64,000 nt of DNA, from positions 1,837,608 to 1,901,607 of the forward strand of contig CAWKFA010000015.1 in the NCBI GenBank assembly GCA_963848825.1, in the 5' to 3' direction. The position numbers and the translations under genes are program-made. This stretch comes from an uncultured Planctomycetota bacterium (GTDB taxonomy: Bacteria > Planctomycetota > Planctomycetia > Gemmatales > Gemmataceae). Position 1 is the stretch's first letter. Each line of letters starts with the position of its first letter. A model generated the notes under the pieces. It had not been told where the DNA came from. It was given only the letters and a program-made list of their open reading frames with translations, and did not search any database. Shown piece after piece: positions 33,817 through 56,801 of the stretch.

Positions 33817-36333
33817 CTATTGCTGGCCCCGAATTTGTGCCTTGAGAACGTGTTTGAGCCGGTCTTCAATCTTCTTGTGGGCCTTGTCGACTTCCTTATC
33901 CGTCAAGGTGCGGTCGTCTGCCTGGTAGGTAAGAGCATACGCCAGGCTCTTGTGCCCCGTGGTTATGCTCTCGCCGCGGTAAAGATCGAATAGCCGCACG
34001 CCGCGCACGAGTTCGCCGCCGGCCGCGTGAATCTCGCTGCTGATGCGTTCCGCGGTTATTGCTTCGGGCACAACCACGGCAATGTCGCGCAAGGCGCTGG
34101 GAAGCGCGGCACGGGCGTATACGGATGACGCGCCGGCACCAGCGCCTGGAGAGCTTCGACGTCAAAGTCGCCGACCAGTATCGGCCGTGTTCCTAGACCA
34201 TAAGCCTCGGCCGTCTTGTAATGCAATTGGCCGAATTCGCCCAGCACCCTGCCGCCCGCGAGCAAGGTCGCGCTCCGGCCGGGGAGGAGATAACTGGCCG
34301 CCGACGGCTGATATTTCACCTCGGCCAGGTGCAGATCCCCCGCCAGCGCTTCCACGATGCCCTTGAGATCGAAGAAATCGAGCGGCTCCTTGACGCCTTT
34401 GTCCGTACTCTTGCTATCGCTCCAAAATTCTTCATGACGATGCCCCGTAAGGACGATGGCCAGACGGCGGGGCTCCTGGGGCAGCTTGTCAGCAGCGTGG
34501 GAAAGGTAGACAAAGCCGATCTCGAACAGGCGGACGTCATCGGCATGATGGAGGTTGGCCGCCAAAATTTCCAGAACGCTCGCCAGCACGCTCTGGCGCA
34601 TGACGACGCGTTCGCTGGAGATGGGGTTTTTAAGGCGCACGTACTCCCGCGGCTCGATAAGCGGTGCCTCCCGTTCGGGGGTGGTGAGGGCATAGGTGAT
34701 GACTTCTTGCAGGCCCGCGCCCACCAGTAAATCGCGCAGGCGTTCCTCAAAAACGATGGGAACGTTGGTTTGCTGGCGCGGCAGGCGGTCGGCCAGCAGG
34801 GTCGAGGGGAGTCGATCATAACCGTGGATGCGCGCCAGTTCCTCGATGAGGTCGGAGCTGCCGACCTGGATGTCGAGCCGATGCGTCGGTACCGTCGCCT
34901 GCAAGAAGTCGCCGTGGTCCTTGACGTCGAATTCCAGAGTTTGCAGGATCTGGATGGCTTCTGCCTTGGGAAATTCCATGCCCAGCAGCCGATTCACTTC
35001 ACTTAATTTGAGTTCAATCACTTGCGGCGGCACCGGCGCGGGATAGCAATCGATCAGACCCTGGCAAACTTTGCCGCCCGCATAGCGCCCGATGAGTTCC
35101 GCGGCCCGCTGCAGCGCCGGCGCTACCGTCTCCGGATGGATGCCCTTGCTGAAGCGGCACACTGGCTTCGCTCGGCAGGTTGAATTGCTTCATCGTGCGA
35201 CGAATGCAGACGAAATCAAAGCTGGCGGATTCGAGCAAGATATTGGTCGTTTGGGCCGTGACTTCCGTTTCCGCGCCGCCCATGACTCCCGCCAGGGCGA
35301 TTGGCCCCAGCGTGTCGGCGATGATTAAATTGTCGGGGCCAAGTTGACGTTTCTGGCCGTCGAGAGTGATCAGGATTTCGTCGGCCCGCGCCGCCCGAAC
35401 GATGATGGTCGGGCAACCCCCGCCGGCCCGTTTGACGAGCACGTCGAAGTCGAAGGCATGCAGCGGTTGGCCCCACTCGAGCATGACGAAATTGGTGACG
35501 TCCACAACATTATTGATGGGCCGCATGCCCGCATAGTTAAGCCGGCGCTGCATCCAGGCGGGTGACGGCGCGATGGCCACACCCAGGCACAAGGAAGCGG
35601 CATAGCGCGGCGATAACTTCGGATTGTCGATCTTCACCTGAACCTTGCCGGCGATAGCGACATCGCTCGGAGGCGGCATGGAGGTGGGCAGCTTTAAGGT
35701 TTGCCCGGTAAGCGCCGCCACCTCGCGGGCCACGCCGACCATCGACAGGCAGCGTGCCATATTGGGCAGGACGTCAATCTCCAACACGATGTCGCCCATG
35801 AAGTCGGCCAGCGGCATTCCCACCGGGGCACTTTCCTCAAGAAGGATAATGCCTTCATGCTCCTCGGAGATGCCCAGTTCGCGGTAGGAACACACCATCG
35901 CGTCCGACGGCACGCCGCGCACCTTTGCGGGCTTAAGCTCCTTGAGGACTTTTTCTTCGGAGTGGCCGTCGAAAAGGACGGACCCCGCGAGCGCCAGCAC
36001 GACCTTTTGGCCCTGCTCGCCCGGCTTGATGTTCGGTGCGCCGGTGACCAGCTGTTTGACCTTGCCTTCGCCCCATGTCACGGTCGGCAGCGTGAGCCGG
36101 TCCGCGTTGGGGTGCTGCTCGACGCTCATGACCTCGGCGATGACGATCTTGTCGCTTGTCCCAGACTGGCCCGCGCAGCTCGGGCTTCGACGCGCACCCC
36201 CTCCGGAATCGGCAGGCCGATCACGCGCACGCTGGCCACTTCAAGCCCGGCCAGGGTCAGACGCTCGATGAGCTGCGCCGGCAGGCAGGGTGAGATCGAC
36301 GTAATCGCGAAGCCAGTTTAAGGGGATTTTCAT
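33817..36333 (-). CDS. pheT: phenylalanine--tRNA ligase beta subunit; at least 4 frameshifts near 36270, 36180, 35160 and 34090
   Basis: MKIPLNWLRDYVDL start at 36333; ...DKIVIAEVMSVEQHPNADRLTLPTVTWGEGKV tRNA-binding domain; B3/4 and core in ORFs 35014-36129 and 34056-35162; FDX-ACB end in ORF 33817-34092. Confidence 0.85.
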
Positions 36334-47039: not shown

Positions 47040-47747
47040 TGAACTTGACGACAAGATGCGGGTGTTCGAGACGGCCCACGACCTGTGCGTGCTGCCGGGC
47101 CTGTACATGGTCGCCCGCCTGGACGGACGCAGCTTCACCCGGCTGACGAAGGAGGTCCACCAGTTGAGGCTCCGTTCGACGCCCGATTCCGTGACATGAT
47201 GCTGGCAACCGCCGAACACCTGATGACCGGCTGCGGCTTCAACATCGTTTACGGCTACACCCAGAGCGACGAGATTTCCCTGCTGTTCGCCCTGGAGGAG
47301 AACAGTTTCAGACGAAAGCTCCGCAAGCTGATCTCGGTCCTGTCCGGGGAGGCCAGCGCCAAGTTCTCACTGTTGCTGGGTGCGGTAGCCGTATTCGACT
47401 GCCGCATCTCGCAACTGCCCTCGGTGGACCTTGTGGTCGATTACTTCCGCTGGCGCAACGAGGACGCCCACCGCAACGCCCTGAACGCTCACGGCTACTG
47501 GCTCCTCCGCAAGAAGGGGACAGACGGTCGGGCGAGGCGACGGCGGCGATGAAAGGGCTGTCGGTGGCCCAGAAGAACGAGCTTCTGTTCCAGAACGGCG
47601 TCAACTTCAACGACCTCCCGCTGTGGCAGAAGCGGGGCTCTGGCCTGTACTGGGAGGAATACGAGCGACCCGCCGAAAACCCGGTCACAGGCGAGAAGGT
47701 GGTCGCCCGGCGCAGGCGGGTGCGCCGTGACCTTGAGTTGCCGATGA
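47029..47747 (+). CDS. Thg1-like protein (3'-5' RNA nucleotidyltransferase); frameshifts near 47150 and 47520-47545; reads through in-frame into the next gene as sequenced
   Basis: MKFDELDDKMRVFETAHDLCVLPGLYMVARLDGRSFTRLTKE ~ Thg1 N-terminus (SKFGYVRQFE...IVVRIDGKKFHEFSK); ...GYTQSDEISLLF (acidic metal site) and ...RWRNEDAHRNALNAHGYWLL; start overlaps the PNK stop by 11 nt. Confidence 0.8.
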
Positions 47748-48778
47748 AGGACGACTACTCGGCGTTTCTCCACAAGCTGCTGCCCGTCGAAGGCGTCAAC
47801 GCACGAGACGCCATGAAGTGTGACATGCAGGATCGAGTCCACCACCATCCGAACCTGATCTATTCGCTCGGCACGCAGGTCGTGACGCTGGTCGAAATCC
47901 TCGGCCAGAGCGGCAAGGTGCTGCACCCCCGTGGCTCGGTCGGCGTGGTCGTCCGCTCGCCGGTGGACCTGGATCATCCCTACCGGGTCCGGTTTGCCGA
48001 TGGCATCGAGGAGTCGCTGAACCGGGATCAAGTGACGATGCTGGCCCGCTACAAGGAGTCCGAGATCGGCGACACCGGCATCACGGCCATTCGCTGCAAC
48101 CTGTACGAGCGGGTCATCTATCGCTGCGTCATCGGCTCGCAGGCGTATGGCCTGGCCGGCGAAGGGTCGGACATCGACCGCCGAGGCATCTACCTGCCGC
48201 CCGCCGACCTGCACTGGTCGCTGTACGGCGTGCCCGATCAACTGGAAAACGACGACACCCAGGAAGCCTACTGGGAGATCCAGAAGTTTCTGGTGCTGGC
48301 ACTCAAGGCGAACCCGAACGTGCTGGAATGCCTCTACACGCCGACTGGTCGAGAAGGCGACTCCGCTGGCCGAGAAACTGCTGGCGATGCGGTCGTTATT
48401 TCCTCTCCCGCATGGTGTACCAGACGTACAACGGCTACGTCCTGTCGCAGTTCAAGAAGATGCAGGCCGACCTGCGCAACCAGGGCCAGGTGAAATGGAA
48501 GCACGTCATGCACCTGATCCGGCTGCTTGCTCTCGGGCATCCGCATCATGCGGGAGGGCTTCGTGCCGGTCAGGGTGGAGGAGCATCGGGAGAAACTGCT
48601 GGCGATCCGGCGAGGCGAGGTGCCCTGGGAAGAGGTCGAGGACTGGCGGAAGCGTCTGCACCACGAATTCAACGCCGCCTCGGAAGCGACGAACCTGCCC
48701 GAGCGCCCGGATTACGAGAGGGCCAATGCGTTTCTGATCGAGGCCCGCCGCTCGGCATTGTCGGAGAACCTGCCATGA
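47744..48778 (+). CDS. Pol-beta-fold nucleotidyltransferase with N-terminal beta-rich domain and C-terminal helical domain (possibly RlaP-type RNA-repair NTase); at least 3 frameshifts between 48340 and 48530
   Basis: VIGSQAYGLAGEGSDIDRRGIYLPP (GS...D.D minimal NTase motif); ATG 47744 overlaps a TGA (ATGA) usable as the TLP stop after a frameshift. Confidence 0.5.
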
Positions 48779-49550
48779 TGAACGACCCACGTTTGCTGAA
48801 GCAGGTCGAACTGCATCCCTATCCGCTGCTCTTCGCCACGATCAGCGGGGCGCACCTGTACGGCTTCCCGTCGCCGGATTCCGATTACGACCTGCGCGGC
48901 GTGCATCTGCTCCCGCTGGAGGAAGTGGTCGGGCTTGAAGACGGGCCAGGAGACGGTCGAGAAATCGGGAGTCCACGATGGCCTGGAGATTGATCTGGTC
49001 ACGCACGACGCCCGCAAGTTCTTCGGCCTGCTGCTGAAGAAGAATGGCTACGTGCTGGAGCAAGTCCTGTCGCCGCTCGTCGTCCACACGACGCCGGAAC
49101 ATGCGGAACTGAAGGAGATCGCCAAGAACTGCGTCACCCGGCATCATGCCCATCACTACCTGGGTTTTGCGGAAACGCAGTGGAAGCTCTTTCAGAAGGA
49201 AGACCCGCCGCACGTCAAGCCGCTGCTGTATGTGTACCGGGTGCTGTTGACCGGCATTCACCTGATGCGGACGGGCGAGGTTCAGGCCAACCTGGGGCGG
49301 TTGAACGAGAGCTTCAAGCTGCCGTACATCCCAGAATTGATCGAGCGAAAGGTTACGGCGGCACCGAGAAAGGACGCCTGGAGAAGGCGGACCTTGGCTT
49401 TTCATCAGCGGGAGTACGAACGGCTGCGGGCCGAACTTGAGCAGGCTTATCAGGAAAGCAAGCTGCCGGAAGCACCGAGCGGGGCGGCGGCGTTGGATGA
49501 ACTGCTTGTCCGCATTCGGCTTGGCAAGAAGGGCAATGAGGTTGATTGAA
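48775..49550 (+). CDS. paralogous Pol-beta-fold nucleotidyltransferase (possibly RlaP-type); frameshift near 48960
   Basis: ISGAHLYGFPSPDSDYDLRGVHLLP NTase motif; C-terminal helical domain paralogous to the preceding gene; ATG overlaps the upstream TGA (ATGA). Confidence 0.5.
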
Positions 49551-50379: not shown

Positions 50380-50582
50380 ACGAATTCTGCCTCTTTACTT
50401 TTCCAGGGAGCCGGGCCTCGCGAGGCTGTTCCAGAAGGCATCAAGCGGCTTGCTTCGGGGCTTAGTAGGCAAAAGCCGAACGATTTAAGTGATTCTGCAA
50501 GGCATATTTGTGGAGATAGTCGTTTCGGGGCGCACCACAATCGAAGGCCGTCGGGTCATGGCCTTGAGTGAGCGGAACCGGG

Positions 50583-50765
50583 TCAGGATGGGGCGTTGCG
50601 GTTGGCATCAAAAAGGCTCGGCTCCGTAAGCAGTTTCCTGAGCGCGGGAATTTCCTTCGCGGGCACGTCCAGGGCGGCACAAAAAGCTTGCCAGCGATCG
50701 TCGGGCAGGACGAATTGCACCTGGTCGGCAGTGTCCGCGGGATCCTCGTCCAGTGGCGTACTCAT
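50583..50765 (-). pseudogene. remnant of a DUF1778 (TacA-like) antitoxin: C-terminal region only, no RHH N-terminus and no adjacent GNAT toxin
   Basis: ...VLPDDRWQAFCAALDVPAKEIPALRKLLTEPSLF resembles the DUF1778 C-terminal motif (compare Salmonella TacA ...DPEAYQEFLVRLDQTPSPNAALRKTMQTP). Confidence 0.35.
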
Positions 50766-50943
50766 TGCTTCTGTCCTCCAAATCTCATGATACTGGAAAA
50801 ATCCCTGCCATGTCGAGCGTAAACAAGGGCGTTGCCGCCCCTTCACGTGGCTGCGGGTTCCCTTCAAGACTGAGCCGTTTCGCGGCTGCCTTCAATCCAG
50901 TCTACGTCGTCGTACGGCTTGCCTCGAACGACGCTGCGGCGAA

Positions 50944-51296
50944 GGTGAAAGGGTGGTGGTCTTCGTCCCCTGCCGCCTCGTGCGGCAGGAACGAAAGGTC
51001 TGTAGCTAAGGTAAAGGGTGGTGGTCTTCGTCCCCTGCCGCCTTGTGCGGCAGGAACGAAAGGTCTGTAGCTAAGGTAAAAAAGTGGTGGTCCTCGTCCC
51101 CTGCCGCCTTGTGCGGCAGGAACGAAAGGTCTGTAGCTAAGGACCCTGGCGGCGACCACAAAAAGGATGCGCGAGATGGTGGTTTAGGTGCGGACCTTGC
51201 GTTCCTGCCACGCGAGGTGGTAGGGGACGGGGTGTGGGCGGCTTGATTTTGCTAGCTGTCGACCTTTCGTTCCTGCCACGCGAGGTGGCAGGGGAC
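50944..51296. repeat. cluster of 36-bp stem-loop repeats: three direct copies in a 66-67-bp tandem unit (50965-51000, 51030-51065, 51096-51131) and two inverted copies (51193-51228, 51261-51296); not CRISPR
   Basis: gtcccctgccgccttgtgcggcaggaacgaaaggtc; inverted copies carry compensatory stem changes (cctgccGc/gCggcagg -> cctgccAc/gTggcagg). Confidence 0.75.
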
Positions 51297-51394
51297 GGGA
51301 CACTAGTATCCTGCCACACAATCCGGACGCGATAAATCGTCGAACAAAGTCAGCAAGCCATCTTTTGCGTCAAACGTCGCAGCTCAATAGCTAT

Positions 51395-52107
51395 CTAACC
51401 GCCGGCTGCCTGGGTAGCCAGCGTGGCCAAAACCAGTGCCGCCGTCTCGATACGCAGTATACGCGGTCCCAGACCCAGCACGTGCCAGCCATGCGCTGAT
51501 GCCTGGGCGATTTCTTCCGCCGTGAAGCCTCCTTCGGGGCCGACGGCACAGGATAGGTTTGCTCCCGCTGTCACCGGCCAGCCGGCGGTGGTTCCCGGGG
51601 TGGGCGGGTGAGCGACAATACGTAGGGTGCCGGCTGCGGCGCGTTCACAATAGGTAGCCCAGTCGATGGGGTCTTCCACGCGCATCAGTGTGTTGCGGCC
51701 GCACTGTTTGCTGGCTTCGATCACGTAGCGTTCGAGCTTGCTCTTTTTGTTGTCGCCCAGGTGGCCGGCGCCGCGCTGGCAGAGGAGCGGGACAAAGGCG
51801 CTGACGCCAAGTTCGGTTAACTTTTCCACCAGGAACTGGGCTCGATCCCCCTTGGGCACGGGCGCGGCGATTTCCAGGCGAAAGCCAAGCTCTCGGCTGG
51901 GCGAGGCCACCCCTTCAATTTCGAGATGAACCGACCTTTTCGAGACTTCGACGATGCGCCCGGGTATTCATGCCCATCGCCGTTGAATAGGCAGATTGCG
52001 TCACCCGCGCGAAGCCGGCAAACCGTGGCAAGATGGCGGGCTTCCGGGCCCGTCATTTCCACCGGACCGGTGGTCAATGGCCAGTTGAGATAAAATCGTT
52101 CCGACAT
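51395..52107 (-). CDS. rsmE: 16S rRNA (uracil1498-N3)-methyltransferase RsmE; frameshift at a cccggg run near 51963-51970
   Basis: N-terminal PUA-like MSERFYLNWPL...FNGDGHEY; alternative frame continues RIVEVSKRSVHLEIEGVASPSRELGFRLEIAAPVPKGDRAQFLVEKLTELGV (SPOUT domain). Confidence 0.8.
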
Positions 52108-53930: not shown

Positions 53931-55251
53931 ATGGCCATGGCGTCCCCTCCGGAAAACGATGCTCGTTTTCGCTGGCAAACACTGTTTCAGCATGCTACTG
54001 GGCCCATTTTTCTCCTCAATCGTCGTCGCCGGATCCTGTTTGTCAACCGGGCCTGGGAAACGCTTACGGGGTTGACGCTCGCGGAAGTGAAGGGGCAGGT
54101 ATGCCGGCGCCGGCCGCGCGGTATCTTGGCGGAGAAGATCGAACTCTTGCTTGGCGCCCTGGCCCCTCCCGCGGAAGCCATGGAGGGGCAAGCCACGCAG
54201 TCCCGCCGGCTCGTGCCTTCCGGTAACGCGCCGGCTTGCTGGGACATTGCTTTCTTTCCCCTTAACGGCAACGCCGGGCTCGTCGGCATCCTTGGCGGCA
54301 TTCAGGTCATTCCACGCCCGGAAACACCGGCGGGCCCGCCGCTCTCCGAAAAGATGCTGGCTTTGCGTCAGCGTCATCTCGAGCATTATCGTCTCGAGCA
54401 CCTGATCGGCGCCGGTCCCGTCCTTACCCGTTTGCGCAGCAAATCCGCCTGGCGGCCCAGACGCGCTTGCCGATCCTTCTCGTCGGGGCACGCGGCACGG
54501 GCAAGCAATGGGTGGCGCGGGCCATTCATTTGCTCGGACCGGACCATGAAAAACCATTCGCCTGCCTGAATTGTGCTCATCTTCCGCCCCAGGCGCTCGA
54601 GTCGCTGCTGTTCGGCACCGGCCAGGGTGCGCCGCTGGCCGGCCTCTATCTGCAAAATATCGCCGCCTTGCCGCGTGACCTGCAGGAACGCCTGCAAGCC
54701 CGTCTGGAAGCCGAGGGAGAGGTGTCGCCGCGCTTTTGTGCCGGCGTGATGGATGATCCCCAGGAAGCCGTCCGCCTGGGAAAACTTGTCGAAGGCCTTT
54801 ATTGCCGGCTCAGTACACTGAGCATTGAACTGCCGACTCTCAAGGAACGCATGGAGGATTTTGACGCCTGGGCCGACCACTTCTTGGCCCGCGCAACCGC
54901 GCCGGCGACCGGCAAGTGCAGGGCGTGAGCGCCGAAGCCGTGCAGGTCCTGCGAGCGCATGCCTGGCCGGGAAATTTGCGGGAGCTCCACGAAGTGCTGC
55001 GCGCGGCCTGCTTGCGAGCCCGGGGCGAGCGGATCGAGCTTGGCGACTTGCCTTTCCACCTGCGCCAGGGGCCCATGCCCGAGATCAAGCCGCTGTCGCT
55101 CGATGCCATTTTGGAGCAGGTGGAACGGCGTCTGATTACCCATGCCTTGAAGCTCGCTGCCAATAACAAAAGCCGGGCCGCGGAGTTACTCACCATCTGG
55201 CGCACCCGCCTGTTGCGGCGGCTGGAAAACCTGGACATCAAGGACCAGTAA
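53931..55251 (+). CDS. PAS-domain / AAA+ (sigma-54 activator-type, GAFTGA-less) / Fis-type HTH transcriptional regulator; frameshifts near 54440 and 54910
   Basis: PAS (PIFLLNRRRRILFVNRAWETLTGL), AAA+ (PILLVGARGTGKQWVARAIH...), C-terminal HTH (NNKSRAAELLTIWRTRLLRRL). Confidence 0.65.
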
Positions 55252-56399: not shown

Positions 56400-56801
56400 A
56401 CAGATTTCTCCAAAAAACTGGGGTTTTCTGTCCTTAGATAGGTAAGGTATCCGTTTGCTATTCCCGGAATATTAAAGCTGCGCCTGGGCAACGGCAACAA
56501 AAATCGCCTTTTTTTGTGTTTTTTTGTGCGATTTCCTTCAAAATGTGCCTACTTTCGCCACCTGTCCTCTAATACGCGCAGGCTCCGCATTGGCGGCGTT
56601 TTAAAGTGCGCCAGCGAAAAATCAGAAAAATCGTTAAAACCGGCCGCCTGCCGGAAAACTTGACCTATAGTTGCCGTGAAGCTCTTCGCGTGAAGAGCGA
56701 TCCTCGACAAGGGTAAACCCGTCGTAAGGCGGGGCGCAAAACCATGGGTCCGGTAGCCAGGCGCTGGCGATCGGATTGCCAGGTTGCCGAAAGGAAAAGT
56801 C

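What the first reader, a model, noticed from the sequence alone, without database searches (positions are those of the whole stretch)
50944..51296. Structured 36-bp repeat family: three tandem direct plus two inverted copies, with a compensatory base-pair change in the stem
The 66-67-bp periodicity (36-bp repeat plus 30-bp interval) superficially mimics a CRISPR array. However, the intervening 'spacers' are nearly identical to each other, the copies occur in both orientations, and no cas genes are present.

Each repeat holds an 8-bp GC stem (cctgccgc / gcggcagg). The inverted copies have cctgccAc / gTggcagg, a covarying pair that preserves the hairpin. This argues for selection on RNA or ssDNA structure, as in a REP/BIME-like element, a structured sRNA, or a recombination or protein-binding site.

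It sits between a decayed DUF1778 antitoxin fragment and rsmE.
Basis: seen in the sequence. Interest (0 to 1): 0.55.

Follow-up and report, generated by a model that had tools for sequence, protein, structure and literature searches.

The report
Cluster of REP-type palindromic repeats
The five hairpin repeats downstream of rsmE are not a CRISPR array: they are a local cluster of a short selfish palindromic repeat (REP-like, "CGTC-tagged") whose nearly identical 29-nt hairpin is scattered through Planctomycetota/Verrucomicrobiota-group genomes, an ordinary kind of element but a family that I could not find described.

Summary
Positions 50942-51142 hold 3.1 tandem copies of a 66-nt unit, and 51192-51302 holds two inverted copies. 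All five share a 45-nt core with the unit CGTC-C-CCTGCCRC-CTYGY-GYGGCAGG-AACG. The G-C to A-T stem change is genuine and family-wide. In 60 distinct copies from other genomes that pair is 41 G-C, 17 A-T, 2 G.T and never unpaired. A covariance model finds exactly five copies in the 64-kb window.

Pattern scans found the same hairpin dispersed in PVC-group MAGs and metagenomes, usually one copy per locus. No locus has unique spacers, and no cas gene or transposase lies in the window. Copies tend to sit just 3' of co-oriented ORFs. One is an in-frame insertion in a PabB-like gene. In relatives the hairpin and a diverged inverted partner flank a variable hairpin inside 140-220-nt elements with terminal inverted repeats, some with 9-11-bp target-site duplications.

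Tag, stem length, loop (CTTGT) and tags-outward dimer geometry match the CGTC-tagged REP superfamily of Di Nocera et al. 2013, which was not reported from PVC phyla. Verdict: a new family of a known kind. The window holds an inverted doublet enlarged by local tandem duplication. The mobilising enzyme and any RNA role are inferred.

The parts
50942..51142 (+). Tandem array: 3.1 head-to-tail copies of a 66-nt block (units 50942-51007, 51008-51072, 51073-51138, then AAGG). Each block holds one REP unit plus about 37 nt of flank. The array begins and ends with AAGG.
   Evidence: TRF: period 66, 95% matches, score 360; alignment A1; sequence read directly.
50964..50993 (+). REP unit D1: CGTC tag, C, stem CCTGCCGC, loop CTCGT, stem GCGGCAGG, tail AACG.
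   Evidence: Covariance-model hit 50959-51001, 62.8 bits; pattern match.
51029..51058 (+). REP unit D2 (loop CTTGT, G-C at stem pair 7).
   Evidence: Covariance-model hit 51024-51066, 64.0 bits. The 43-nt unit folds at -20.5 kcal/mol as RNA and -14.6 as DNA.
51095..51124 (+). REP unit D3 (loop CTTGT, G-C at pair 7); left member of the tags-outward (HH) doublet.
   Evidence: Covariance-model hit 51090-51132, 63.7 bits.
51125..51199 (.). Doublet spacer. Its ends are complementary (AAAGGTCTGTAGCTAA / TTAGGTGCGGACCTTG) and enclose about 43 nt of unique sequence. This corresponds to the variable middle hairpin (H2) of the full-length relatives.
   Evidence: Inverted repeat I2: arms 51092-51140 / 51184-51232, 80% complementary, 43 nt apart. 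The 145-nt doublet 51090-51234 folds as one long hairpin, -102 kcal/mol on the + strand and -73 on the - strand.
51200..51229 (-). REP unit I1 (inverted; stem CCTACCAC/GTGGCAGG on its own strand, loop CTCGC, A-T at pair 7, one A.C mismatch at pair 4); right member of the HH doublet.
   Evidence: Covariance-model hit 51192-51234 (-), 52.4 bits.
51268..51297 (-). REP unit I2 (inverted; stem CCTGCCAC/GTGGCAGG, loop CTCGC). It is an older duplicate of I1 together with its 15-nt spacer arm. It lies about 93 nt downstream of the rsmE stop, in sense orientation to rsmE.
   Evidence: Covariance-model hit 51260-51302 (-), 60.6 bits; direct-repeat family D2, 89% identity, 68-nt spacing.
51395..52107 (-). 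rsmE (16S rRNA methyltransferase), the upstream gene on the - strand. It is split into two frames: PUA_4 domain 51817-52107 and methyltransferase domain 51395-51910. It is context, not part of the element.
   Evidence: Pfam PF20260 and PF04452. The frame change lies at a CCCGGG run near 51955. An identical 171-aa product is on record from a 2.02-Mb contig.
50583..50765 (-). Decayed antitoxin: the C-terminal part of a TacA1/DUF1778 protein, with its own GGAGG ribosome-binding site and ATG. It is the downstream gene on the - strand and is context only.
   Evidence: Pfam PF08681, E = 4.3e-5, profile positions 42-76 of 80. A promoter-like site lies at 50816-50787 (-).

Best explanation
**What it is.** The feature is a local cluster of five copies of a short, non-coding, non-autonomous palindromic repeat of the REP type. 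More precisely, it is a previously uncatalogued family of the 'CGTC-tagged' REP superfamily that is spread through the PVC group (Planctomycetota, Verrucomicrobiota, Kiritimatiellia, Lentisphaerota). The unit is CGTC-C-[8-bp stem CCTGCCRC]-[5-nt loop CTYGY]-[GYGGCAGG]-AACG.

**What is shown.**
- The hairpin is maintained by compensatory changes.
- The unit is dispersed at many unrelated loci in other genomes.
- It tends to lie just after stop codons, in sense orientation.
- It can sit in frame inside a gene as an insertion.
- In relatives, two inverted units flank a variable hairpin inside 140-220-nt elements with terminal inverted repeats. Some of these have 9-11-bp target-site duplications, so they behave as MITEs.

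**History inferred for this locus.** An inverted 'tags-outward' doublet (D3-spacer-I1, about 145 nt) inserted downstream of rsmE. The right half was then duplicated (I2). More recently, a 66-nt block of the left half was amplified to three copies by slippage or unequal exchange between AAGG microhomologies.

**Mechanism inferred.** Copies are spread in trans by a transposase encoded elsewhere. The duplications point to a DDE-type enzyme for the TIR-bounded forms. The enzyme for naked units is unknown, as it is for all CGTC REPs. The cluster needs no function of its own. If rsmE transcription reads into it, the stable hairpins (-18 to -24 kcal/mol each) would act as a 3'-end barrier or terminator, as shown for E. 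coli REPs. That would be a by-product, and could be why such insertion sites are tolerated.
For: **Anatomy.** establish five copies, all at one locus.

**Dispersal.** 36 genome loci and 39 metagenome loci match a pattern with free stem and loop positions; about 33 of each are genuine. Kiritimatiellia MAG AnMBR.bin297 alone contributes 13 loci. Most loci hold a single copy and none has CRISPR-like unique spacers.

**Structure conservation.**
- Pair 7 is G-C in 41, A-U in 17 and G.U in 2 of 60 distinct copies, with 0 unpaired. The core helix is 99.4% paired, against 32-47% when the partners are slid by 1-3 columns.
- Diverged copies carry double changes at pairs 3, 6, 7 and 8.

**Tag.** The base before GTCC is C in 43, T in 14 and A in 3 of 60 copies, i.e. 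CGTC or TGTC.

**Match to published CGTC REPs.**
- The defining features come from PMC3733652.
- Real CGTC-3 units were fetched from R. etli p42c (CGTC-ATGCTCGGC-CTTGT-GCCGAGCAT-CTG) and Nitratireductor pOM-1. They have the same tag, arm length, loop and tags-outward heterodimer with a 35-60-nt spacer. The R. etli unit lies 50 nt after a co-oriented CDS.

**Position.** A co-oriented ORF ends within 100 nt of the tag side in 26 of 56 loci. A converging ORF ends within 100 nt of the tail side in 9.

**Insertion.** The L036 copy adds about 20 residues to a PabB-like linker. The segment is absent from 11 of 13 homologues.

**MITE-like relatives.**
- TIRs are seen.
- Target-site duplications: GCGTCCCCG in L063, CTCAGCCCT in L069 and TCTTACGACTT in L064. 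Seven of 14 elements have at least 4 bp, against 1.1 expected, and 0 of 2000 shuffles reach that count.

**No linked protein.** No protein family recurs beside the element. The window holds no cas gene and no transposase.

**Independent amplification elsewhere.** Tandem duplication of the hairpin module also occurs in L041 (three copies, different inter-copy sequence) and L045.

**Slippage signature.** AAGG lies at both ends of the array.
Against: - The copy number in the window's own genome is unknown. There are only five copies, all at one site, in 64 kb. There are none in 42 kb of related Gemmataceae DNA. No Planctomycetota species-representative genome matched the exact pattern. So 'dispersed repeat' is shown for relatives, not for this genome.
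- Two descriptive features of published CGTC REPs are not met. The first two stem pairs are C-G rather than A-T, and the tail is AAC(G) rather than CCA. Here CGT of the tag can also pair with ACG of the tail.
- Head-to-tail arrays are described as negligible, and clusters as rare, for CGTC REPs.
- The window cluster has no TIR or target-site duplication. No empty orthologous site could be found, so insertion at this locus is inferred, not shown.
- Near-identity of 29 nt across classes is more than neutral selfish DNA usually shows. It hints at a constraint (a protein partner or an RNA role) that this explanation leaves open.
- The ORF calls behind the positional statistic are crude (longest ORFs plus a GC-frame filter).
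Confidence: 0.72

Rival explanations
1. It is a host-selected RNA element. The hairpin would be a functional 3'-UTR module (an exonuclease barrier, a terminator, or the binding site of a conserved PVC RNA-binding protein) kept by selection. The window cluster would then be a reinforced 3' end for rsmE.
For: - The 29-nt unit is nearly identical in Kiritimatiellia, Verrucomicrobiota, Lentisphaerota/Victivallales MAGs and this planctomycete, while everything around it differs.
- The stem is kept by compensatory changes.
- There is a sense-orientation bias next to stop codons, 26 against 9.
- Non-Watson-Crick cells on the element's own strand are mostly G.U (17) rather than A.C (1).
- I2 and I1 are in sense orientation about 93 nt after the rsmE stop.
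- The same hairpin sits in MITE shells with different TIRs and duplication lengths.
Against: - The neighbouring genes are unrelated to one another.
- One copy is an in-frame insertion inside a gene, on the antisense strand.
- Truncated, decayed and tandemly duplicated copies are common.
- Target-site duplications indicate transposition.
- The three direct copies in the window are antisense to the only transcript likely to cross them.
- No U-tract follows the hairpins, and the terminator scan found none there.
- The G.U excess is largely forced by the search pattern, which fixed the 3' partner.
Confidence: 0.18
2. It is a REPIN mobilised by a RAYT: an inverted REP doublet copied as single-stranded DNA by a single-copy, domesticated IS200-like tyrosine (HUH/Y1) transposase, as for the GTAG REPs of Pseudomonas and E. 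coli.
For: - It has an inverted-doublet architecture with a hairpin plus a conserved 5' tetranucleotide.
- The element is strongly strand-asymmetric: 64 bits on the forward strand against 12-17 on the reverse.
- The orientation bias could reflect lagging-strand targeting.
Against: - The tag is CGTC, not GTAG.
- The published survey found no tyrosine transposase flanked by CGTC units in any species (PMC3733652).
- No recurrent protein lies beside 69 loci, and no transposase was found in the window.
- The 9-11-bp target-site duplications of the TIR-bounded relatives are not expected from HUH/ssDNA transposition.
Confidence: 0.08
3. It is a degenerate or orphan CRISPR array, or solitary CRISPR-like repeats. 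The 29-nt unit, which begins GT and carries a stem-loop, would be a former CRISPR repeat.
For: The unit has the size and shape of a type I repeat (29 nt, 8-bp stem) and the period is about 66 nt. This resemblance is recalled from general knowledge, not tested.
Against: - The intervals are 95% identical to one another.
- The copies lie in both orientations.
- No cas genes were found among the window's main ORFs.
- Among 75 loci from genome and metagenome scans, none has an array with unique spacers; almost all have one copy.
- There were no hits in viral contigs.
Confidence: 0.01
4. It is a DNA-level protein-binding or recombination site (an operator palindrome, integron attC, plasmid iterons, or a phage or IS target) linked to the neighbouring toxin-antitoxin remnant.
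For: - The unit is a perfect 8+8 palindrome, and palindromes are kept by symmetric changes.
- The adjacent decayed TacA fragment suggests past mobile DNA.
- An identical DDE-type IS abuts one end or the other of two elements in one Kiritimatiellia MAG, as happens with IS that target REPs.
Against: - The family is found next to unrelated genes, mostly after stop codons rather than in promoters.
- No integrase, rep gene or cassette array lies nearby.
- There are no attC core sites.
- H1 has no plasmid or phage counterparts.
Confidence: 0.04

Closest known systems
CGTC-tagged REPs (Di Nocera, De Gregorio & Rocco 2013, BMC Genomics 14:522; families CGTC-1 to -4, including Neisseria dRS3 and Rickettsia RPE-4/-6), especially CGTC-3 of Rhizobiales
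   Same: - Terminal CGTC tag with TGTC variants.
- Stem of 8-9 bp and loop of 5 nt; the commonest loop here, CTTGT, is the loop of the R. etli unit.
- Short 3' tail, about 30 nt in total.
- Tags-outward (HH) dimers with 35-60-nt spacers, built from partners with different stems (heterodimers).
- Dimers sometimes embedded in longer palindromes.
- Location just 3' of ORFs, with occasional in-frame intragenic copies.
- No linked transposase gene.

   Different: - The stem sequence differs: it starts C-G, C-G rather than A-T, T-A.
- One extra unpaired C follows the tag.
- The tail is AAC(G) rather than CCA, and it can pair with CGT of the tag.
- The host phyla (PVC) were not among those reported for CGTC repeats.
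- Head-to-tail arrays like the window's are described as negligible.
- Relatives carry clear TIRs with target-site duplications.
REPIN/BIME systems of gamma-proteobacteria (GTAG REPs with RAYT transposases)
   Same: Inverted doublets of a GC-rich hairpin with a conserved tetranucleotide. Clusters that mix orientations (BIME-like). An extragenic position after genes. Hairpins able to act as mRNA 3' barriers (established for E. coli REPs; general knowledge).
   Different: The tag is CGTC, not GTAG. No RAYT was found in the window or beside 69 loci. Relatives show target-site duplications, which RAYT or IS200-type chemistry does not make.
Bacterial MITEs with structured interiors (e.g. Neisseria Correia elements, ERIC/IRU, Rickettsia RPEs)
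   Same: For the full-length relatives: size of 140-220 nt, 18-21-nt TIRs, target-site duplications (9-11 bp, or 4 bp), a long foldable interior, insertion next to or inside genes, and in-frame read-through.
   Different: The window cluster itself has no TIR or duplication. The same subterminal hairpin is shared by at least three shells with unrelated TIRs. No parent IS with matching ends was found.

Membership tests
CGTC-tagged REP superfamily (PMC3733652) | Terminal tetranucleotide CGTC (variants TGTC/CCTC) at one end of the palindrome | tested here: met
   All five window copies read CGTC. In 60 distinct family members the base before GTCC is C in 43, T in 14 and A in 3. Caveat: here CGT can pair with ACG of the tail, so the tag is not strictly 'unpaired'.
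CGTC-tagged REP superfamily (PMC3733652) | Stem of 8-9 bp and loop of 4-5 nt | tested here: met
   The stem is 8 bp and the loop 5 nt in all copies. Loops are CTTGT in 21, CTTGC in 20, CTCGT in 10 and CTCGC in 5 of 60. CTTGT equals the loop of the fetched R. etli CGTC-3 unit.
CGTC-tagged REP superfamily (PMC3733652) | First two stem pairs 'almost invariably' A-T | tested here: not met
   The first two pairs are C-G and C-G in 60 of 60 copies.
CGTC-tagged REP superfamily (PMC3733652) | Short unpaired 3-nt tail, mostly CCA | tested here: inconclusive
   A short conserved tail exists, but it is AAC(G), not CCA, and it is partly pairable with the tag.
CGTC-tagged REP superfamily (PMC3733652) | Predominantly tags-outward (HH) dimers, often heterodimers; head-to-tail units negligible | tested here: inconclusive
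   D3/I1 is an HH heterodimer with a 43-nt spacer core, and the full-length relatives are HH dimers. However, the window also has head-to-tail arrays (3+2 copies), as does L041.
CGTC-tagged REP superfamily (PMC3733652) | Multi-copy and dispersed in the genome (tens to thousands of units) | not testable with these tools
   Only 64 kb of the source genome is available, with five copies at one locus. In relatives the feature is met: 13 loci from one Kiritimatiellia MAG with the exact pattern alone.
CGTC-tagged REP superfamily (PMC3733652) | Mostly intergenic, close to the 3' end of the upstream ORF; some intragenic in-frame copies; no associated transposase gene | tested here: met
   A co-oriented ORF stop lies within 100 nt in 26 of 56 loci. 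An in-frame PabB insertion was found. No recurrent neighbouring protein was found.
REPIN-RAYT system | GTAG (GT[AG]G) tag, and a single-copy Y1/HUH transposase gene flanked by the REPs | tested here: not met
   The tag is CGTC. No transposase was found in the window or recurring beside the loci. The rest of the genome was not testable.
CRISPR array | Direct repeats in one orientation, separated by unique spacers, usually with cas genes and a leader | tested here: not met
   The intervals are 95% identical. There are two orientations. No cas domains were found in the ORFs scanned. No array exists in any collection scanned.
MITE (TIR transposon derivative) | Terminal inverted repeats flanked by a target-site duplication; small and non-coding | tested here: inconclusive
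   For the window cluster there is no TIR beyond the inverted REP units themselves, and no duplication. For relatives the feature is met: 18-21-nt TIRs, 9-11-bp duplications in L063, L069 and L064, and 7 of 14 with at least 4 bp against 1.1 expected. No parent IS was found.
Any Rfam RNA family | Covariance-model score at or above the family's gathering threshold | tested here: not met
   There was no hit at the locus at gathering thresholds. At permissive E-values only a generic long-hairpin match appeared (MIR840, 37 bits against a threshold of 150). Full-length relatives gave none.

The most novel reading that the evidence does not exclude
The 29-nt hairpin may be a portable module under strong purifying selection across PVC phyla because it is the recognition site of one conserved, still unidentified protein: either the long-sought mobilising or maintenance factor of CGTC-type REPs, or an RNA-binding protein acting on 3' UTRs. 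On this reading it has been picked up by at least three MITE shells with unrelated terminal repeats and different target-site duplication lengths. Its near-invariance would then let that protein be found by phylogenetic co-occurrence.
Probability: 0.2. Interest if true: 0.6.

Novelty: new member of a known kind. Interest (0 to 1): 0.33.

Why it matters
For annotating this window, the repeats should be labelled as a REP/MITE-type repeat cluster, not as a CRISPR array or an sRNA gene.

More broadly, CGTC-tagged REPs are the one large REP superfamily with no known transposase. The 2013 survey did not report them from the PVC superphylum, and a 2025 REP survey does not mention these phyla.

A family whose hairpin is almost invariant across several PVC classes, and which occurs naked, dimeric, tandem and inside TIR/TSD-bounded shells, is a convenient handle on two questions. 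First, which enzyme moves these elements? Second, is the hairpin kept for the element's benefit or the host's?

It also offers a ready marker (model R1) for repeat-aware assembly and binning of PVC MAGs.

Tried and rejected
- **Wrong loop length.** My first hairpin pattern used a 4-nt loop and found only a chance hit. It was corrected to 5 nt.
- **Rfam.** Nothing matched at gathering or permissive thresholds. The MIR840 hit is a generic hairpin artefact.
- **Extra outer helix.** The proposed pairing of columns 4-5 with 36-37 is only 39% paired and was rejected.
- **Source genome by exact protein look-up.** YebC, transketolase and P0121 were not in the positional index. The cluster look-up gave no accession. 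The organism is therefore placed only as Gemmataceae-like, from named homologues.
- **Empty orthologous site.** YebC neighbourhoods in four relatives are not syntenic with the window. The nearest RsmE relatives are only about 65% identical. No comparison was possible.
- **Family in related Gemmataceae DNA.** The model found none in 42 kb.
- **Viral contigs and plasmids.** No H1 was found.
- **Linked transposase.** All-against-all clustering of 2016 ORFs from the loci found none. The only shared ORF (L004/L020) looks by eye like an ordinary DDE-type IS transposase and lies at different ends of the element in the two loci.
- **PabB against solved structures.** The alignment starts just after the insert, which is suggestive but not decisive. 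Closer homologues settled it.
- **Second PabB linker insert.** The insert in P0303/L083 turned out to be a different palindrome, not H1.
- **Strand preference from folding energies.** The + strand doublet folds better (-102 against -73 kcal/mol). This is explained by G.U pairs between two heterodimer halves and is not a reliable indicator of the transcribed strand.
- **CRISPR-repeat resemblance.** Considered, then dropped for lack of any array.
Full report
**1. The observation.**

The region reads as described.
- Tandem Repeats Finder gives one array, 50942-51142: period 66, 3.1 copies, 95% matches.
- The repeat finder adds two more copies on the opposite strand (51185-51231 and 51253-51299, 68 nt apart, 89% alike). 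It also finds 45-49-nt inverted pairings of 80-87% between the two sets.
- Aligned in one orientation, the five copies share an invariant-rich 45-nt core, CGTCCCCT(G/A)CC(G/A)CCT(C/T)G(T/C)G(C/T)GGCAGGAACG(A/C)AAGGTC.... The 20 nt 5' of the core are conserved only among the three tandem copies.
- The hairpin pattern CCTGCCRC-N5-GYGGCAGG occurs five times in 64 kb, against 0.3 expected, and only here.
- A covariance model built later, run without filters, again finds exactly these five (52-64 bits). The next hit scores 12.7 bits and is an antisense echo.
- Copy I1 has one further substitution, which reads as G.T on the + strand.
- The '36 + 30' partition is arbitrary. The array is a 66-nt block duplicated head to tail, beginning and ending with AAGG.

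**2. Context.**

The cluster lies between two - strand genes.
- Upstream in transcription is rsmE. Its PUA and methyltransferase domains are in different frames, and the shift is at a CCCGGG run.
- Downstream is a C-terminal remnant of a TacA1/DUF1778 antitoxin (Pfam profile positions 42-76 of 80).
- The two 'inverted' copies are therefore in sense orientation about 93 nt after the rsmE stop.
- The Pfam scans cover 36 ORFs, including all those in the 35-64 kb half and the ten largest of the first half. They show housekeeping genes only, with no cas and no transposase.
- YebC is 89-95% identical to proteins named as Gemmataceae or Planctomycetota MAG products.
- The truncated RsmE product is on record, 100% identical, from a 2.02-Mb contig.
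- So the source is a Gemmataceae-like planctomycete with no close relative in the databases; the next RsmE is about 65% identical.

**3. Relatives elsewhere.**

I scanned with a pattern that fixes only the flanks and most of the stem (GTCCCCTNCCNCNNNNNGNGGNAGGAACG).
- It hit 36 stretches in species-representative genomes and 39 in metagenomes, and none in viral contigs.
- About 33 of each set are clearly the same element.
- The named hosts are Kiritimatiellia (13 loci from one MAG), Verrucomicrobiota, Victivallales, Lentisphaerae and unclassified MAGs.
- Almost every locus has one copy.
- The exceptions are L036 (two copies 1.5 kb apart) and L041. L041 has three tandem copies at 67-68-nt spacing, with an inter-copy sequence unrelated to the window's. 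This is an independent tandem amplification of the same module.
- L059 has an inverted pair with a G-C stem in one copy and an A-T stem in the other, as in the window.
- No locus looks like a CRISPR array.

**4. The hairpin is under structural constraint.**

- In 60 distinct sequences the pair left free by the pattern is G-C in 41, A-U in 17 and G.U in 2, and never unpaired.
- The core helix is 99.4% paired, against 32-47% when the 3' partners are slid by 1-3 columns.
- Most other stem positions were fixed by the search and carry no information.
- The covariance model, however, recovers diverged copies with double changes at other pairs:
  - pair 8, C-G to G-C (L040, L064);
  - pair 7, G-C to C-G (L053);
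  - pairs 3 and 6 (L034 partner hairpin).
- The third hairpin of the 'group B' elements, read on the other strand, is GACC-CCCGCGAC-CTTGC-GTCGCGGG. This is H1 with three compensatory pairs (sequence read).
- The element is strongly asymmetric: 64 bits forward against 12-17 reverse.

**5. Larger architecture in relatives.**

- In Kiritimatiellia the hairpin opens a 155-nt unit with four parts:
  - TIRs GAGCCAATTTCAAAAGTC...GACTTTTGAAATTGGCTC;
  - H1;
  - a long middle stem with a variable tip;
  - a GC-rich third hairpin.
- In a second group the unit is 143-176 nt, with TIRs CAGCAATTCGCATTATGGC...GCCATAATGCGAATTGCTG, H1, a middle hairpin whose arms covary, and the inverted H1-like hairpin.
- A third group (L064/L051) has different TIRs again.
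- Direct repeats abut the TIRs in L063 (GCGTCCCCG), L069 (CTCAGCCCT) and L064 (TCTTACGACTT), and 4-bp repeats occur in four others.
- Seven of 14 elements have at least 4 bp, against 1.1 expected from shuffled flank pairings, and 0 of 2000 shuffles reach that count.
- These composite forms are therefore MITE-like, with target-site duplications.
- The window's D3-spacer-I1 segment (51090-51234) has the same plan, two outward-tagged hairpins and a spacer with complementary ends, but no outer TIR or duplication.

**6. Where copies sit.**

- ORFs were called crudely, with a GC-frame filter.
- A co-oriented ORF ends within 100 nt of the tag side in 26 of 56 evaluable loci (34 within 300 nt). Only 9 loci have a converging ORF ending within 100 nt of the tail side.
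- The neighbouring genes are unrelated, and no protein family recurs beside the element.
- One copy (L036) lies inside a PabB-like ORF and is read through as ...PFLPHEAAGD....
- Aligned with 13 homologues, that protein has about 20 extra residues exactly there. The segment is absent from 11 of them, so this copy is an in-frame insertion.

**7. Comparison with what is known.**

- Rfam has no matching family.
- Di Nocera et al. 2013 (PMC3733652) define two REP superfamilies by a terminal GTAG or CGTC tag.
- The CGTC type is defined by these features:
  - stems of 8-9 bp;
  - loops of 4-5 nt;
  - a 3-nt tail;
  - mostly tags-outward (HH) dimers, often heterodimers;
  - occasional embedding in longer palindromes;
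  - positions close to the 3' end of the upstream ORF;
  - in-frame intragenic copies (Rickettsia RPE-4/-6);
  - no associated transposase.
- The paper reports CGTC repeats from Proteobacteria, Chlorobi, Bacteroidetes, Spirochaetes and Thermotogae, and only GTAG repeats from PVC.
- I reconstructed a CGTC-3 unit from the paper's intragenic peptides and confirmed it in real DNA:
  - R. etli p42c has CGTC-ATGCTCGGC-CTTGT-GCCGAGCAT-CTG, with an inverted partner of different stem 60 nt away, 50 nt after a co-oriented CDS.
  - Nitratireductor pOM-1 is similar.
- H1 is CGTC-CCCTGCCGC-CTTGT-GCGGCAGGA-ACG. It has the same tag, arm length, loop and dimer geometry, but a different stem and tail.
- The tag base is C in 43, T in 14 and A in 3 of 60 copies, matching the reported CGTC/TGTC variation.
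- Features not met: the first two pairs are C-G rather than A-T, the tail is not CCA, and head-to-tail arrays are said to be negligible.
- A 2025 REP survey (PMC12306157) does not mention PVC phyla.
- I therefore file this as a new family of a known kind, not as a member of CGTC-1 to -4.

**8. How it most likely works.**

Shown:
- a structurally constrained hairpin;
- dispersed, insertion-competent copies;
- MITE-like shells with duplications in relatives;
- local tandem amplification arising independently in two lineages.

Inferred:
- At this locus an inverted doublet inserted after rsmE.
- The right half was then duplicated (I2, 89% identical).
- The left half was later amplified as a 66-nt block (95% identical) by slippage between AAGG repeats.
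- Spread is in trans. The duplications point to a DDE-type enzyme for the TIR-bounded forms. The enzyme for naked units is unknown, as for all CGTC REPs.
- Each unit folds at -18 to -24 kcal/mol as RNA on either strand, and the doublet can form a single long hairpin. Read-through from rsmE would therefore meet a strong 3' structure.
- No U-tract terminator is predicted. An RNA role is possible but untested.

**9. Caveats.**

- The copy number in the source genome is unknown.
- No copy was found in 42 kb of related Gemmataceae DNA.
- No Planctomycetota representative genome matched the exact pattern.
- No empty site could be compared.
- The assembly carries many frame-splitting indels, so 1-nt differences between copies may be errors.
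- The near-identity of 29 nt across classes, inside shells with unrelated TIRs, is not explained by simple selfish spread. It is the most interesting loose end.

Noticed in passing
window 56703-56792 (+): c-di-GMP-I-GGC riboswitch aptamer: Rfam RF03167, 62.3 bits against a gathering score of 59, E = 2.6e-12, full length. It is the only Rfam hit in the window.
   Followed up: no
window 51395-52107, 53931-55251, 34056-36129, 47085-49549: Several genes are split across reading frames: rsmE (2 pieces), a PAS/sigma-54 activator (3 pieces), pheT (2 ORFs) and Thg1-like/RlaP genes. The rsmE shift lies in a CCCGGG run, and the public record also calls the truncated 171-aa product. This suggests homopolymer indel errors in the assembly, or widespread pseudogenes.
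   Followed up: partly
window 50462-50765 (-): Remnant toxin-antitoxin pair. The TacA1 C-terminal fragment has its own GGAGG ribosome-binding site and ATG plus a promoter-like site (50816-50787). It is followed by a 72-aa ORF with no Pfam hit that looks by eye like the start of a GNAT toxin.
   Followed up: partly
L004 2031-3266 and L020 4203-5438: A 412-aa ORF is 100% identical in two contigs of Kiritimatiellia MAG AnMBR.bin297. By eye it looks like an HTH plus DDE/rve-type IS transposase; it was not scanned against Pfam. It lies about 100-150 nt from the composite element, at the H3 end in one locus and the H1 end in the other. It may be an IS that targets these palindromes.
   Followed up: partly
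L035 6190-6218: One copy has the loop GCAAG, the exact reverse complement of the common CTTGC, with an unchanged stem. This is a 'flipped' loop, as expected from hairpin- or cruciform-mediated inversion.
   Followed up: no
L083 1830-1900 (protein P0303): A Kiritimatiellia PabB-like gene carries an unrelated GC-rich palindrome (CTGCCCGC...GCGGGCAG), translated in frame, in the same linker where L036 carries the H1 insertion. The H1 model does not recognise it.
   Followed up: yes
L045 ~60-130; L041 5179-5342; L017 887-1008; L018 ~640-740: Hairpin modules of the family are repeatedly duplicated in tandem in other genomes: H3 twice in L045, H1 three times in L041, and partial H1 copies in L017 and L018. 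Local amplification seems to be a property of the family.
   Followed up: partly
L003 and L005 (orthologous loci of two different MAGs): The element lies at the same site, between an ATP-grasp ORF and a GNAT ORF, in two MAGs whose flanking proteins are 60-84% identical. That insertion therefore predates their divergence. The whole element is free of stop codons in the antisense frame, fusing the two ORFs into one long reading frame.
   Followed up: partly
L001 2787-2815, L053 2319-2347, L058 4875-4903: These are weaker relatives with C-rich stems (e.g. GTCC-CCTTCCCC-CTTGC-GGGGGAGG-AACG). One is in a Xanthobacteraceae (alphaproteobacterial) MAG. They are possible links between the PVC family and the alphaproteobacterial CGTC REPs.
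   Followed up: no
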